From the NCBI GenBank assembly GCA_964354495.1, contig CAYHAA010000004.1, positions 30,001 through 62,000 of the forward strand: a stretch of 32,000 bases of DNA, given 5' to 3'. This DNA comes from an uncultured archaeon. GTDB taxonomy: Archaea > Asgardarchaeota > Thorarchaeia > Thorarchaeales > Thorarchaeaceae. Below, piece by piece: positions 25,921-29,532 of the stretch. Each line of letters opens with the position of its first letter. Positions within the stretch are counted from its first letter, which is position 1. The notes below the pieces were generated by a model. That model did no database searches, was not told the origin of the DNA, and worked only from the letters and a program-made list of their open reading frames with translations. The position numbers and the translations under genes were made by a program.

Positions 25921-27162
25921 ATGAGCAACAACTTGGAATATCATAACGAAGATGCAGTCGAACTAGACTCAGCTGAGGGCGATGTCGTGATTCGAAACTG
26001 CAGAACACTGAGGCCAAAGAAGGGCAAGGAAATCACAATTGGCGGAGCGCTCATTGTCTATGAGGAATTGTCTGTCGAAGGAGACCTTCGATGTGATCGA
26101 CTCGAGTTGAAGACGAGAGACCGTGTGGTCGTCAATGGGAGTCTCTATGTCGCCAAATCCATTGATGCAAGAAAGGGCTCTATCGAGGTGGAAGACAACC
26201 TCGAGGCTCGAGATATCGATGCGGGTGCCACATTGAGAGTTGGTGGCAACCTAAAATGCATCGCTGCAAAAGCAGGTGCTTCTGTTGCAGTTCAAGGAGA
26301 TGCTGAGGCCCAGAGATTGACTGGAGGCGGCTCAGTCAAAGTCGGAGGTCTCTGCAAGGTCGAGAGAGTTTCTGGCGGAGGTTCTGTGTCAGTTGAAGGC
26401 AGGATTGAAACAGACGAGCTAGATGCTGGCGGCTCAGGGAAAGCCGTGGATGGCACCATCAAGAAAGTATCAGTAGGTGGTAGTTTCAAGGCAGAAGGAG
26501 CCATTGTGATAGATGATCTTGATGTCGGAGGCTCTGCAAGCGTTGGTCCTGGCTCCAAGGTAAGGAATGTCGATATCGGTGGAACTTTCAGAGCAGAGGG
26601 AGACCTCGAGTTCGGTGCTATCGATGTAGGCGGCACAGTGAAAATAGAAGGCAACGCGCACGGCGACTCAATAGATGTTGGAGGCACTGTGAAAGCAGAG
26701 GGAGACCTCACACTGGCCCAGGGACTCGATGTTGGAGGGACCGTCGCGGTTGATGGAAACCTGAAATGCGACGACAAGATTAAGGTCGGTGGAACAGTCA
26801 AAGTCGAAGGCAGAATAGACACCTTCCGAATAATAGTCGGAGGAGAGATCTCTGCTTCCTACATCAAGGCAACAGATGGATTCAGAATTGGCAAGCGTGC
26901 AGAGGTCAGCGGATTTGTCGAGTCAAGGGAGATTCTCATACGGGAACGTGCGAGAACCGACTCACTATACGGTGATGACATCAGAATTGAAGAACGTGCC
27001 CGAGTAGGCAGTATCTATGGACACAAGATCTACATCGAACGAGATGTCATTGTAGAAGGCAAAACCCTCTACACGGAGAGTATTGAGTCAGAAAGTGGTG
27101 TTCAATTCAAGGAAGAGCCCAGAAAAGTGGATGCACTCCCGCCTCCGGAGCAGCTCAAGTAG
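25921..27162 (+). CDS. Long polymer-forming cytoskeletal (bactofilin-like) beta-helix repeat protein
   Basis: Many 17-18 aa repeats of the type xxxDxIDVGGTVKxEG across about 400 aa; no signal peptide. Confidence 0.8.
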   Translation: MSNNLEYHNEDAVELDSAEGDVVIRNCRTLRPKKGKEITIGGALIVYEELSVEGDLRCDRLELKTRDRVVVNGSLYVAKSIDARKGSIEVEDNLEARDIDAGATLRVGGNLKCIAAKAGASVAVQGDAEAQRLTGGGSVKVGGLCKVERVSGGGSVSVEGRIETDELDAGGSGKAVDGTIKKVSVGGSFKAEGAIVIDDLDVGGSASVGPGSKVRNVDIGGTFRAEGDLEFGAIDVGGTVKIEGNAHGDSIDVGGTVKAEGDLTLAQGLDVGGTVAVDGNLKCDDKIKVGGTVKVEGRIDTFRIIVGGEISASYIKATDGFRIGKRAEVSGFVESREILIRERARTDSLYGDDIRIEERARVGSIYGHKIYIERDVIVEGKTLYTESIESESGVQFKEEPRKVDALPPPEQLK

Positions 27163-27167
27163 TCGAC

Positions 27168-27183
27168 AGTGAAGGCCTTCACT
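27168..27183. terminator. Perfect 16-bp palindrome between convergent genes
   Basis: AGTGAAGG|CCTTCACT followed by TCTTCCT. Confidence 0.55.
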
Positions 27184-27221
27184 TCTTCCTAGTTGTGGGC
27201 GGAATGACTCAGTCCTTGGCA

Positions 27222-28190
27222 CTACTTTCGTCTTTTCTTTTTTAGAAGTAGTATTCGTCTACTGCTGTCTATATCGTATGGCGAACTATCAAACTCGCCC
27301 GATTCTGAAATGACCTCGAACCCAGACTTTCGTACAAGCAAATCAGCCTCCACATCGGAGATAAGGGCTGCTCCAGACGTGGCTTTGACAGTCTCGACTA
27401 TTGAACCATCGGCACTCCTGACGATGTACTGGAGATCCACCCGCAGTATTCTGTGATCGCTATCTGAAGAGATCTTGCCATGTCGCTCGACCGTTCTACT
27501 GTTCGCGATGCTTACAGGCAGATCTTCGAATCTCGCATGCGCATACTGCACTTCCCTGTTGTACAAATCAAGGATAAACAGCCCGTTCTCGCTCATATGT
27601 TGTCGAACACAACGGAGACATGCAAGTTGCGCCTCTGTCGTCATAGCGTGACCAAACGAGTTGGGGATGATGATGAGTGAGAATCTCTGCTTCATCTTGA
27701 ATTGCTCCATGTTTGCCTGGACGAGTGTAATACGTCTAGAAACGGGGAGTGGTGCTTGCTGCAATTTGCGCCTAAAAGCAGCAAGCATAGAGGGTGAGCA
27801 ATCCAATGCAACTACTTCAAACCCCTCACGAGCTAAGGCAAGACTGACCGTTCATTGTTAGTTGGACAAACTTGGACATCAGAGTGCTGTCCGCCCAGGA
27901 AACGGCACTGGGCTCGACTCCGTGAGGACAGAGTTCATGTCAGGTCATCCTCACAGGATTGGTCTGTACTGGACTATATAAGCACCTGTCCAACTTTGTC
28001 CAAGTCTCTTGCAGCTGTTGTCAACCCTTCCGGTGCCTGCTGCAACATCAAGGATGGGCGAGCCCATCTTTTCCGCGTGCCATATGTAGAAGGGAATGTC
28101 AGAATCGTCTGTGAATAGGTCGTAGAACTCTCCGACACCATCATAGCCAGGACTCAGACCCGAGAAGAGGTCCTCTTTTTCTTCAGGCAC
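27222..28190 (-). pseudogene. Class I SAM-dependent methyltransferase interrupted by a 174-bp insertion
   Basis: Joining 28190-28027 to 27849-27222 gives a 263-aa ORF with intact ILDVAAGTGRVSLALAREGFEVVALDCS; the insert adds five in-frame stops. Confidence 0.9.
27850..28023. mobile_element. Non-autonomous 174-bp insertion element (MITE-like), flanked by ACC on both sides
   Basis: Empty site reconstructs exactly; ACC at 27847-27849 and 28024-28026; subterminal inverted repeats TTGGACAAA(C/G)TTGGACA at 27862-27878 and 27987-28003 (16/17 identical). Confidence 0.85.
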
Positions 28191-28557
28191 TGGGAAACGC
28201 TCCTAGATACACTCAGCGTCAAGCATGCTGGTGAATCGCTCGCGAATCAGAGAAGCTCAAATCGGGTTAAGAAGTCTTGGAGTGAAATGAATGAAATGAG
28301 AAAGAATTGAAGGGATGCGGACATCCAATCCAATCCGTTTCCGACATTTCGCTTCAATCGCAACGTCAGAGATTCCACATCCCTACTGCTTTTCCGCACA
28401 ACTTGAATATTACCATCATTGTGTATGTGAGCACACATAATTCCCCATACATCTGCCAAAATCAGGAAACGGCATTATGCCAATTCGAAGGCTTTATCAC
28501 TCAGATTCGAGGAGGCCGGCACTCAGCGCTTGGTCATCATTAGGTTGTGAGCAGACG

Positions 28558-29532
28558 ATGGCGATTGACAAGAAGACACTCAAGGAGCTGTACACGAGGA
28601 CTTTGAAAATCAGACTCTTTGAGGAAAAAGTTTGGAACCTCTTTGGAGAGAATATTGTGCCTGGCACACTTCATCTGTATCTTGGAGAAGAGGGTGTTGC
28701 GGCTGGAGTGACTACTGCATTGAAAGATACAGACTGGATTCAGAGCTCGCACAGAGGACATGGACATGTCGTCGGAAAAGGCGCGGACATGAACTTGGCC
28801 CTCGCAGAGCTACTCGGAAAGAAGACAGGCTCGTGCAAGGGCAAGGGAGGTTCCATGCACATTACACAGTTCAACGTTGGCGTACTTGGCGCGACAGGTG
28901 TGGTTGCATCAGGTCTGCCAATTGCAGTGGGTGCAGCTCTCTCCTGTCAGATCAGAAAGACAGACGATGTCGTTGTATGTTTCTTTGGTGACGGTGCCTC
29001 AAACAACGGTACATTCGGCGAGTCGCTGAATATGTCAGCAATCTGGAAGCTTCCCCTTGTCTGGATTGTGGAGAATAATTTCTATGCAATGGGCACACCA
29101 ATCAAGATGACATGCCCGAGTGCAACCATAGCTCAGAGAGCAGAGGGGTACTGCATTCCAAGTGGCGTAGTAGATGGAAACAATGCGCTAGAGGTCTATG
29201 AAGCCACCCAAGTAGCTGTGAAGAGAGCACGGGAGGGTGGTGGACCCACCCTGATTGAGTGTCAGACATATAGAATGAAAGGACACTCAAGGTTCGATCC
29301 AGCTAAGTACCGACCTCAGGAGGAGGTGGATCGCTGGCTCAGCCCTGAGAGAGATGCTGTTCAAATCATCAAGAAGCTTGCCATCGAACAGGGTGCTATC
29401 ACTGAGAAGGAAGCCGAAAGGATTCGTGCTTCTCTTCAGAAGGAAGTTGACAAGGCGGCAGAATTCGCCAAGAACTCGGAATATCCGAGTCCTGAAGAGG
29501 CCCTAGATGATGTCTATGCGGAGGTGCACTGA
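28558..29532 (+). CDS. pdhA: TPP-dependent 2-oxoacid/acetoin dehydrogenase E1 alpha
   Basis: PGTLHLYLGEEG, SHRGHGH, GKGGSMH, TPP motif GDGASNNGTFGESLN...ENN, TYRMKGHS; AcoA-like, substrate not certain; start ATG 28558. Confidence 0.92.
   Translation: MAIDKKTLKELYTRTLKIRLFEEKVWNLFGENIVPGTLHLYLGEEGVAAGVTTALKDTDWIQSSHRGHGHVVGKGADMNLALAELLGKKTGSCKGKGGSMHITQFNVGVLGATGVVASGLPIAVGAALSCQIRKTDDVVVCFFGDGASNNGTFGESLNMSAIWKLPLVWIVENNFYAMGTPIKMTCPSATIAQRAEGYCIPSGVVDGNNALEVYEATQVAVKRAREGGGPTLIECQTYRMKGHSRFDPAKYRPQEEVDRWLSPERDAVQIIKKLAIEQGAITEKEAERIRASLQKEVDKAAEFAKNSEYPSPEEALDDVYAEVH

What the first reader, a model, noticed from the sequence alone, without database searches (positions are those of the whole stretch)
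27884..27982. Interior of the element looks like a promoter plus structured RNA (possible guide-RNA-only transposon)
Seen: CTTATATAG TATA-like box (27982-27974, minus strand). About 20 nt on lies a 10-bp hairpin with one bulge (TCC-GTGAGGA/TCCTCAC-A-GGA, 27919-27958). Then two interleaved stems, GTGCTGT/ACGGCAC (27884-90/27902-08) and GCCCAG/CTGGGC (27893-98/27908-13), form an H-type pseudoknot geometry. Known: TnpB omega-RNAs are pseudoknotted, overlap the element right end and take their guide from the flank; IS110 elements encode bridge RNAs. Inference: a minus-strand transcript would run through the end into TCAGTCTTGCC..., a guide matching the empty site, so the MITE could program a TnpB in trans. 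Caveats: one stem pairs better on the plus strand (G-U versus C-A). The hairpin loop TGACC-TGACA-TGAAC echoes target and both ends, but the 5-mers are too short to be significant.
Basis: partly seen in the sequence, partly recalled or inferred. Interest (0 to 1): 0.72.

Follow-up and report, generated by a model that had tools for sequence, protein, structure and literature searches.

The report
Gene-less IS607 mini-transposon with guide RNA
The stretch is the inside of a 177-base, gene-less offshoot of an IS607-type jumping gene in a Thorarchaeota (Asgard) genome; it keeps a promoter-like box and the structured guide-RNA scaffold of the parent's TnpB nuclease, a kind of element already described, so it is a solved case and not a new RNA class.

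Summary
The element (window 27847-28023, minus strand) splits motif I of a methyltransferase gene. Removing exactly 177 bp restores a 267-codon frame.

It belongs to a family of about 25 copies in this genome and about 146 model hits in 15 of 28 genomes of the genus. Both ends match those of an IS607-family transposon (serine-recombinase TnpA plus a large TnpB). Its right end and interior line up with the last ~105 nt of tnpB elements, where omega (guide) RNAs are encoded, on the same strand.

Across 50 distinct copies three nested helices covary (95.6% of cells paired, 9 pairs changed on both sides). A TATA block sits at a fixed distance upstream in 45 of 48 copies.

A different loop-to-tail pseudoknot has modest support.

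Transcription and use by TnpB in trans are inferred, not shown.

The concept is published (PATE-like elements encoding omega RNAs; IS607 TnpB with TGGG TAM and UCGG scaffold end). Earlier notes of this scan report the same family in this genome and similar elements in other archaea. This is a new member of a known kind.

The parts
27847..28023 (-). The whole 177-bp non-autonomous IS607-type element (MITE). In tnpB orientation the LE is at 28023 and the RE at 27847.
   Evidence: Alignment of 16 copies shows the flanks diverge exactly here. Contigs of other copies in three public runs break at 27847 and at 28028-28030. Removing 177 bp restores a 267-aa ORF.
28024..28027 (-). GGGT kept once at the LE junction: target / TAM-like motif holding the GG exchange dinucleotide. 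GGT is shared with the RE end, so the crossover point is ambiguous by 3 nt.
   Evidence: rGGGT in 33-36 of 38 copies. The reading frame is restored only if GGGT is kept. Compare the IS607 GG core (PMC6188088) and the TGGG TAM of CboTnpB (10.1101/2023.11.20.567912).
28004..28023 (-). LE terminal segment with the conserved AACAGCTGC motif (28011-28019).
   Evidence: Conserved in MITE copies and in the LE of tnpA-bearing copies on C24, C22, C46 and C17.
27987..28003 (-). LE subterminal direct repeats TTGGACA-N3-TTGGACA (10-bp phase). Inferred TnpA binding sites.
   Evidence: Inverted match to 27862-27878. The same motif lies upstream of tnpA in C24 and C22. IS607-family TnpA binds helically phased subterminal repeats (PMC6188088).
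27975..27987 (-). Promoter-like block AGGTGC-TTATATA (BRE-like plus TATA).
   Evidence: Information peak at -32 to -20 before H1. A TATA-like word is present in 45 of 48 copies from 15 genomes, although the sequence upstream differs between subfamilies.
27923..27953 (-). Helix H1 (7 bp, 27947-53 with 27923-29) with a 17-nt loop carrying the conserved GACAY.
   Evidence: 96.8% of cells paired, 3 pairs changed on both sides. Colinear with the tnpB codons for D-V-N-A-A-R-N-I in full-length copies.
27880..27922 (-). Helix P2 (CGGAGU 27917-22 with ACUCUG 27880-85), enclosing P3.
   Evidence: 96.9% of cells paired, 3 pairs changed on both sides.
27893..27913 (-). Helix P3 (GCCCAG/CUGGGC) with the near-invariant loop UGCCGUUUC.
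   Evidence: 94.7% of cells paired, 3 pairs changed on both sides. Shared with all tnpB-linked right ends.
27875..27879 (-). 3' strand (AUGUC) of a candidate pseudoknot with the H1 loop GACAU (27937-27941).
   Evidence: 92.7% of cells paired, 3 pairs changed on both sides, 0 of 500 shuffles reach the score. Caveat: it overlaps the RE TnpA repeat.
27862..27878 (-). RE subterminal direct repeats TGTCCAA-N3-TGTCCAA. These are also the 3' tail of the RNA scaffold.
27847..27861 (-). RE terminus ...CUAACAAUGAACGGU. The scaffold ends in ACGG(U).
   Evidence: TGAACGGT in 45-49 of 49 copies, with variable flank after it.
27827..27846 (-). Predicted guide (CAGUCUUGCC...), read from the flanking methyltransferase sequence.
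   Evidence: Inference from omega-RNA architecture. The flank is variable among copies.
27222..28190 (-). Class I SAM-methyltransferase gene split by the element inside motif I (ILDVAAGTG|RVSLAL).
   Evidence: Pfam Methyltransf_25/11/12 on the 3' part. Intact 267-aa frame after removal of the element.

Best explanation
Window 27847-28023 (minus strand) is a 177-bp, protein-less deletion derivative (MITE) of a Thorarchaeota IS607-family transposon. Full forms of the parent carry a serine-recombinase tnpA, a giant ORF and a ~700-aa tnpB.

What the element keeps (shown by comparison):
- both transposon ends, with GG at the junctions and phased TTGGACA repeats;
- a BRE/TATA-like block placed just inside the left end;
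- the last ~105 nt of the parent, which is the tnpB 3' end plus the right end.

That last segment folds into H1, then P2 enclosing P3, then a tail that can pair back to the H1 loop.

Inferred mechanism:
- TnpA supplied in trans moves the element between (A)GGG(T) sites by exchange at GG, without a target duplication.
- The internal promoter makes a ~105-nt scaffold RNA that reads on into the flank (CAGUCUUGCC...). This gives an omega RNA whose guide matches the element's own insertion site.
- A TnpB supplied in trans would use it to cut the empty allele (TAM AGGG(T)) but not the occupied one (ACGG(T)). This would restore or retain the copy by recombination, as shown for IS605 and IS607 TnpB.
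For: Copy number and boundaries:
- 32 BLAST matches in the genome, with sharp boundaries.
- Boundaries confirmed by loose ends in three public runs.

Link to tnpB and tnpA:
- Partial matches abut the 3' zinc-ribbon end of tnpB on the same strand.
- The LE motif precedes an IS607 transposase (NF033518, 160 bits against a cut-off of 110; Resolvase plus MerR HTH) in C24 and C22.
- No Y1 transposase and no IS110 transposase was found in the genome.

Junctions:
- rGGGT at the LE and AACGGT at the RE, with no duplication. This parallels the published TGGG TAM and UCGG scaffold end of an IS607 TnpB and the GG rule with phased repeats.

Structure:
- 95.6% of cells paired, 9 pairs changed on both sides, 0 of 500 shuffles as good, over 50 distinct copies in 15 genomes.
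- G-U pairs outnumber A-C pairs 81 to 25, favouring the tnpB strand.
- Loop sequences are near-invariant although nothing is coded.
- The covariance model aligns the tnpB-linked right ends colinearly.

Promoter:
- The TATA block is conserved in 45 of 48 copies.

Possible partners:
- TnpB copies with unbroken frames, in which the RuvC-like and zinc-finger motifs can be read by eye, are present at C1:5777-7963 and C3:77075-79213. More occur across the genus.
Against: - There is no direct evidence of a transcript start or of the RNA. The one metatranscriptome contig (256 nt, depth 3.2) also covers the TATA box and the flank, and may be DNA or read-through.
- The tnpB copies whose right ends are closest to the MITE (C24, C17, C46) are truncated. 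The unbroken C1 and C3 copies score only 55 and 43 bits with the MITE model, against 75-129 bits for MITEs.
- H1 is 7 bp in MITEs but only ~4 bp in the tnpB-linked copies, so recognition by TnpB is not guaranteed.
- Four MITE-bearing genomes (74-92% complete MAGs) show no TnpB or TnpA with these queries.
- No Rfam family matches.
- The single-sequence fold is not better than shuffles.
Confidence: 0.72

Rival explanations
1. Inert fossil. The element is a non-autonomous IS607 derivative, but its RNA-like interior and TATA box are only leftovers of the parent (the tnpA promoter and the tnpB 3' end). It makes no functional guide RNA. The copies persist only because TnpA moves them.
For: The interior is colinear with tnpB 3' coding sequence. 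The TATA box lies where the parent has its tnpA promoter-like TTTATC. Four genomes have MITEs but no detectable TnpB. No transcript has been shown.
Against: Copies as little as ~70-80% alike, spread over 15 species, keep three helices through compensatory changes. They also keep the loops and the TATA block while neighbouring columns drift. H1 is stronger in MITEs than in coding copies, which points to selection on the fold once coding constraint was lost.
Confidence: 0.15
2. DNA-level feature. The conserved inverted and direct repeats and stems serve transposase binding or synapsis (or single-strand DNA hairpins as in IS200/IS605 PATEs), not an RNA.
For: The TTGGACA repeats at both ends are very probably TnpA sites. 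The pseudoknot tail overlaps one of them.
Against: IS607 transposition works on double-stranded DNA through a serine recombinase, and no Y1 transposase is present. The covarying helices H1, P2 and P3 lie outside the TTGGACA repeats. G-U pairs are three times as frequent as A-C pairs, which is a strand-specific signal expected of RNA.
Confidence: 0.06
3. Mobile promoter or regulatory small RNA. The element matters to the host as an outward-reading promoter, or as an sRNA acting on neighbouring genes, independent of TnpB.
For: A conserved promoter-like block reads out through the RE into host DNA. PATE-derived RNAs in Halobacterium affect growth when overexpressed (PMC4615843).
Against: The insertion here destroys a gene instead of regulating one. 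The flanks are unrelated among copies. The scaffold is homologous to the tnpB right end, which has a known role.
Confidence: 0.05
4. IS110/IS1111-type bridge-RNA element, the alternative named by the first reader.
For: It is a structured non-coding RNA in a small mobile element.
Against: No DEDD/IS110 transposase was found in the genome (97.7% complete). The ends and interior are homologous to IS607 tnpA/tnpB elements. No Rfam match.
Confidence: 0.01

Closest known systems
IS607-family tnpA(serine)-tnpB-omega RNA elements, e.g. the Clostridium botulinum IStron (10.1101/2023.11.20.567912) and H. pylori IS607 / M. tuberculosis IS1535 (PMC6188088)
   Same: Serine-recombinase TnpA with an N-terminal MerR-like HTH. 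GG at both termini and in the target, with no inverted tips and no target duplication. Phased subterminal direct repeats. The omega RNA lies at the tnpB 3' end / RE. The target motif and RE end differ only at position -3 (TGGG vs UCGG there; AGGG vs ACGG here).
   Different: This copy has no genes at all and carries its own TATA-type promoter. The host is an Asgard archaeon. The parent also carries a 1,800-1,900-aa ORF, and its TnpB is ~700 aa and scores below the NCBIfam TnpB cut-off (71 vs 100 bits). There is no group I intron.
PATE-like minimal IS200/IS605 elements that encode omega RNAs (Geobacillus stearothermophilus; Meers et al. 2023, PMC10055086). PATEs were first defined in Haloquadratum (PMC3119063).
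   Same: A protein-less fusion of LE and RE, derived by internal deletion. It keeps the guide-RNA module and needs both the transposase and TnpB in trans.
   Different: Those elements belong to the Y1-transposase, single-strand 'peel and paste' family with subterminal hairpins. This element is IS607-type (double-strand, serine recombinase), and no Y1 gene is in the genome.
VNG_R0052, a PATE-derived intergenic RNA of Halobacterium salinarum, and the sotRNAs of IS1341-type tnpB genes (PMC4615843)
   Same: An archaeal case in which a gene-less LE-RE fusion is transcribed as a structured RNA homologous to the 3' overlapping RNA of tnpB.
   Different: Different family and structure (UUCA tetraloop motif). 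There expression was shown; here it is only predicted.
Asgard 'aCas1'-associated TnpB loci (groups Cas1H-Asgard-1/-2; Altae-Tran et al. 2023, PMC10691335)
   Same: A large Asgard TnpB next to a giant divergent gene. Downstream of tnpB, a conserved T is followed by a hypervariable, guide-like region.
   Different: I could not confirm a Cas1 domain: no Pfam family on the 1,807-aa ORF and no PF01867 match in the genome. Here the linked transposase is an ordinary IS607 TnpA. That paper does not describe the miniature derivatives.

Membership tests
IS607-family transposon, non-autonomous derivative | Ends homologous to those of an element encoding an IS607 serine-recombinase TnpA (N-terminal HTH plus resolvase domain) | tested here: met
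   The LE (GGGT-N-AACAGCTRC-...-GACAAAGTTGGACA) precedes tnpA in C24 and C22. That TnpA hits NF033518 at 160.5 bits (cut-off 110) and Pfam Resolvase plus MerR/HTH_17. The RE is shared with the tnpB 3' flank of the same element.
IS607-family transposon, non-autonomous derivative | GG at both termini and at the target; no terminal inverted repeat at the tips; no target-site duplication | tested here: met
   rGGGT at the LE junction (38 copies) and AACGGT at the RE junction (49 copies). The empty-site frame is restored by removing 177 bp with GGGT kept once.
IS607-family transposon, non-autonomous derivative | Helically phased subterminal direct repeats that bind TnpA | tested here: met
   Two TTGGACA units 10 bp apart lie 15-31 bp from the RE tip and 20-37 bp from the LE tip. 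Binding itself was not tested.
IS607-family transposon, non-autonomous derivative | Mobilised in trans by TnpA | not testable with these tools
   Indirect only: copies 98% alike at different sites, and about 25 copies against 2 tnpA genes.
TnpB omega RNA (reRNA) | Encoded on the tnpB strand, overlapping the tnpB 3' end and ending at the RE boundary, with the guide read from the flank | tested here: met
   The MITE interior plus RE aligns without large gaps to the last ~105 nt of tnpB elements in C17, C24, C46, C1 and C3. The flank is variable after AACGGT.
TnpB omega RNA (reRNA) | Conserved secondary structure supported by covariation | tested here: met
   The strand signal comes from the G-U excess.
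TnpB omega RNA (reRNA) | Transcribed, yielding a defined RNA | tested here: inconclusive
   Only one low-depth metatranscriptome contig covers 27745-28000. The promoter-like block is conserved.
TnpB omega RNA (reRNA) | Binds TnpB and directs TAM-dependent DNA cleavage | not testable with these tools
   Unbroken TnpB genes of the lineage exist.
TnpB omega RNA (reRNA) | Match to a curated RNA family | tested here: not met
   No Rfam 15 family matched at E <= 10 apart from two chance-level hits. No curated model of this lineage appears to exist.
PATE (IS200/IS605-derived) | Subterminal hairpin ends of a Y1-transposase (IS200/IS605) element | tested here: not met
   No PF01797 match in a 97.7% complete genome. 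The ends belong to an IS607 element.
IS110/IS1111 bridge-RNA element | Associated DEDD (IS110) recombinase, with the RNA upstream of it | tested here: not met
   No PF01548 match in the genome.

The most novel reading that the evidence does not exclude
The miniature copies are not passive. Each would be a self-promoted, single-guide unit that parasitises both the TnpA and the TnpB of the rare full-length transposons. Dozens of dispersed guides per genome would then direct one nuclease to cut every MITE-free allele. That is a gene-drive-like retention system run by guide-only elements, which outnumber their nuclease about ten to one in Asgard archaea. It would also give a ready-made scaffold, TAM (AGGG(T)) and natural target list for an uncharacterised ~700-aa Asgard TnpB.
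Probability: 0.35. Interest if true: 0.6.

Novelty: new member of a known kind. Interest (0 to 1): 0.33.

Why it matters
- It explains a gene disruption: the methyltransferase is broken in motif I.
- It adds a well-resolved IS607-type, archaeal example to the idea that gene-less transposon derivatives keep a guide-RNA module.
- The large, diverged family (about 146 model hits in 15 species) gives a covariation-supported scaffold model, a candidate TAM (AGGG(T) against the self sequence ACGG(T)) and defined ends for an unstudied large Asgard TnpB. All of these are directly testable.
- It does not reveal a new class of RNA or a new mechanism.

Tried and rejected
- **Rfam scan** of 27000-29000 at E <= 10: only two chance-level hits (SNORD26, REN-SRE).
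- **Single-sequence folding:** z -0.6 on the minus strand and -1.0 on the plus strand. The minimum-energy fold of the single sequence differs from the family consensus, so thermodynamics alone supports nothing.
- **IS200/IS605 PATE:** this was my first reading and I dropped it. There is no Y1 transposase and the ends belong to an IS607 tnpA element.
- **IS110 bridge RNA:** no DEDD transposase.
no covariation.
- **Public reads:** no contig joins across the element, so no empty allele was seen. The one RNA-library contig over the element is too thin to count. Small word shares in the other runs were not used.
- **Cas1 identity of the giant ORF next to tnpB:** no Pfam family on the 1,807-aa ORF and no PF01867 match in the genome, so I leave that name unverified.
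- **blastp of the C24 antisense ORF against the C3 giant ORF:** no hit. tblastn did link it to C22, C7 and weakly to the C-terminal end of the C1 giant ORF.
- **PDB sequence search with the C1 TnpB:** only weak Cas12f/TnpB matches (E ~0.02).

Full report
**1. What is in the sequence**

The stretch lies inside a short repeat. BLAST of 27840-28020 against the window's own genome gives 32 matches. The genome is 3.3 Mb in 51 contigs and 97.7% complete.

An alignment of 16 copies with flanks shows sharp borders. In the orientation used from here on (window minus strand), similarity starts at (A)GGGT. GGGT is the reverse complement of window 28024-28027. Similarity ends at ...AATGAACGGT, at window 27847.

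Public data agree. Contigs of other copies in three runs break away exactly at 27847 and at 28028-28030, and depth over the element is about 25 times that of the flanks.

The element splits a class I SAM-methyltransferase gene inside motif I. Deleting exactly 177 bp and keeping GGGT once restores a 267-codon frame reading ...ILDVAAGTGRVSLALAREGFEVVALD... Deleting 178 bp breaks the frame. GGT is present at both junctions, so the exchange point is ambiguous by 3 nt. There is no target duplication.

**2. What it derives from**

About half of the matches cover only the window-left ~70 nt. These sit directly beside the zinc-ribbon (PF07282) 3' end of tnpB genes, on the tnpB strand. They are on C17, C24, C46, C3 and C7. 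The window-left end is therefore the right end (RE) of tnpB elements.

I first read this as an IS200/IS605 'PATE'. That failed: the genome has no Y1 transposase.
- Two serine-recombinase genes exist.
- The one at C24:10742-11344 is an IS607 transposase (NF033518, 160.5 bits against a cut-off of 110; Resolvase plus MerR-type HTH).
- It is preceded by the same left-end architecture as the MITE (GGGT-N4-AACAGCTRC-N-GACAAAGTTGGACA).
- About 2.5 kb further on lies a tnpB remnant whose RE ends at C24:13864 and matches the MITE RE.

Both ends carry two TTGGACA units 10 bp apart, in inverted orientation between the ends. These features are the published hallmarks of the IS607 family (PMC6188088): GG at the termini and in the target, a (G)GG target preference, no inverted tips, no duplication, and helically phased subterminal repeats bound by TnpA.

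No IS110 transposase is present.

The neighbouring window gene is 83-94% identical to genes of Candidatus Thorarchaeota MAGs. The host is therefore an Asgard archaeon.

**3. The RNA-like interior**

Nineteen copies from this genome (A1 and A2) give a nested consensus:
- H1: 7 bp, window 27947-53 with 27923-29.
- P2: CGGAGU/ACUCYG, 27917-22 with 27880-85.
- P3: GCCCAG/CUGGGC, 27908-13 with 27893-98, enclosed by P2.

I built a covariance model from these copies (R1). It finds about 146 matches in 15 of 28 genomes of the genus. A separate BLAST survey found none in 16 genomes of other genera of the phylum.

On 50 distinct copies (A3), 95.6% of cells pair and 9 of 23 pairs change on both sides. 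None of 500 shuffles does as well, and neither do versions with the partner slid by 1-3 columns. A3 was fitted to the model, which favours the structure. The MAFFT alignment A1 was not fitted to it, although the same 19 copies were used to build the model. A1 gives the same picture.

G-U pairs outnumber A-C pairs 81 to 25. This is what an RNA read from the tnpB strand would show.

It has one position that never pairs and no compensatory change, and 500 of 500 shuffles do as well. It is not supported.

Another tertiary pair is plausible. The conserved H1 loop GACAC is complementary to GUGUC in the tail. This window has GACAU/AUGUC (27937-41 with 27875-79), and other copies have GGCAC/GUGCC and AACAC/GUGUU. 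Overall 92.7% of cells pair and three pairs change on both sides. The events are few, and the tail overlaps a TnpA repeat, so I rate this as modest support.

Folding the single sequence is no better than shuffles. No Rfam family matches.

**4. Relation to tnpB coding sequence**

The model aligns the tnpB-linked right ends colinearly, at 31-71 bits against 75-129 bits for MITE copies. H1 corresponds to the codons for the RuvC-III motif (D-V-N-A-A-R-N-I). P3 corresponds to E-P-S-A-V-S-G, just before the stop.

But this is exactly where omega RNAs are encoded. In the gene-less copies the helices are kept or strengthened by compensatory changes (H1 is 7 bp against ~4 bp). The loops also stay nearly invariant although nothing is coded. 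This points to selection on the RNA and not to mere decay.

**5. Promoter**

The block AGGTSY-TTAWATA lies at -32 to -20 before H1 in 45 of 48 copies from 15 species. The three subfamilies have unrelated sequence between the LE repeats and this block. In the parent, a TTTATC box sits at the equivalent place in front of tnpA. A start within a few nt of the 5' base of H1 is expected from archaeal promoter geometry. That is inference. The only RNA-library evidence is one thin contig covering 27745-28000, which proves nothing.

**6. Mechanism proposed**

- *Shown:* family membership of the ends, the homology to the tnpB right end, the conserved fold and TATA block, and the exact empty site.
- *Inferred:* TnpA in trans moves the element by GG exchange between (A)GGG(T) sites. 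The internal promoter makes a ~105-nt scaffold that continues into the flank (CAGUCUUGCC...). TnpB in trans uses it to cut the empty allele but not the occupied one.

For a bacterial IS607 element the TAM is TGGG and the scaffold ends in UCGG, with self and non-self told apart at position -3 (10.1101/2023.11.20.567912). Here the corresponding pair is AGGG(T) and ACGG(T), from 38 and 49 junctions.

Candidate partners are the unbroken ~700-aa TnpB genes at C1:5777-7963 and C3:77075-79213. Reading their sequences, I can see motifs resembling the RuvC catalytic motifs and the CxxC zinc fingers. Many more copies occur in the genus.

Weak points:
- The tnpB copies with the most similar RE are truncated.
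- C1 and C3 have more diverged right ends.
- Four MITE-bearing MAGs show no TnpB or TnpA with my queries.

**7. Comparison and novelty**

Gene-less LE-RE fusions were defined as PATEs in Haloquadratum (PMC3119063). One is transcribed in Halobacterium (PMC4615843). Meers et al. state that PATE elements 'often encode omega RNAs' that must be used in trans by TnpB (PMC10055086).

This is the same idea in the IS607 family and in an Asgard host. The parent also carries a giant ORF beside tnpB: 1,807 aa on C3, and an open frame of 1,907 aa on C1 that reaches the contig start. That pairing resembles the published 'aCas1-TnpB' loci (PMC10691335). I could not confirm a Cas1 domain.

Earlier notes of this scan report the same family elsewhere in this genome and similar IS607 mini-elements in other archaea. 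I used them as leads and re-tested what I rely on.

Verdict: a real, well-supported feature; a new member of a known kind; moderate to low interest.

Noticed in passing
G000 C1:3-5723 (-) with C1:5777-7963 (+); C3:79379-84799 (+) with C3:77075-79213 (-) (L096): Each unbroken ~700-aa TnpB gene is paired head-to-head with a giant ORF: 1,807 aa on C3, and an open frame of 1,907 aa on C1 that runs to the contig start. The C3 ORF, the one tested, matches no Pfam family, and no Cas1 Pfam match exists in the genome. Earlier scan notes call this the Asgard aCas1-TnpB element.
   Followed up: partly
G000 C24:10650-13864 (L097): A decayed parent copy: LE, an intact IS607 tnpA, a 329-codon antisense ORF homologous to ORFs on C22 and C7 and weakly to the C-terminal end of the C1 giant ORF, then a tnpB lacking its first ~200 codons, then the RE. 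It looks like an internal deletion.
   Followed up: partly
G000 C8:82269-87328 (L016, L021, L024): A cluster of at least four copies within 5 kb. Two of them lie back to back, and a degenerate RE-like copy abuts the LE of its neighbour.
   Followed up: no
G000 C46:2558-3017 and C17:19845-20194: Intermediate deletion derivatives of ~350-460 bp. The LE is joined to the last ~100-140 codons of tnpB plus the RE. This documents the path from full element to MITE.
   Followed up: partly
A3 / (loci from 15 genomes): At least three MITE subfamilies differ in the segment between the LE repeats and the TATA block: none, a ~32-nt insert TCYCTTAGATGA..., or TTTCGCTGTACGAG. All keep the TATA block at the same distance from H1.
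   Followed up: partly
Genus survey: Genomes G012, G002, G022 and G009 carry 3-13 MITE copies, but no TnpB or IS607 TnpA of this lineage was found with my queries. G012 holds the closest relatives of the window copy (90% identity). These are either orphan copies or unassembled repeats in MAGs.
   Followed up: partly
window 27745-28000: A 256-nt contig from a sediment metatranscriptome (10 differences) carries the same insertion junction. The methyltransferase gene is therefore interrupted at the same site in a related population from another study.
   Followed up: no
G000: C31:6342-6545, C6:13956-14105, C15:65989-66144, C27:7606-7782, C17:679-831, C24:23902-24048, C4:100647-100823: Further TnpB zinc-ribbon (PF07282) hits lie in open frames that mostly span 550-590 aa. 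tblastn with the C1 and C3 TnpB at E 1e-5 does not find them, so a second TnpB lineage is present in this genome, one copy ~39 kb past this window's end on the same contig.
   Followed up: no
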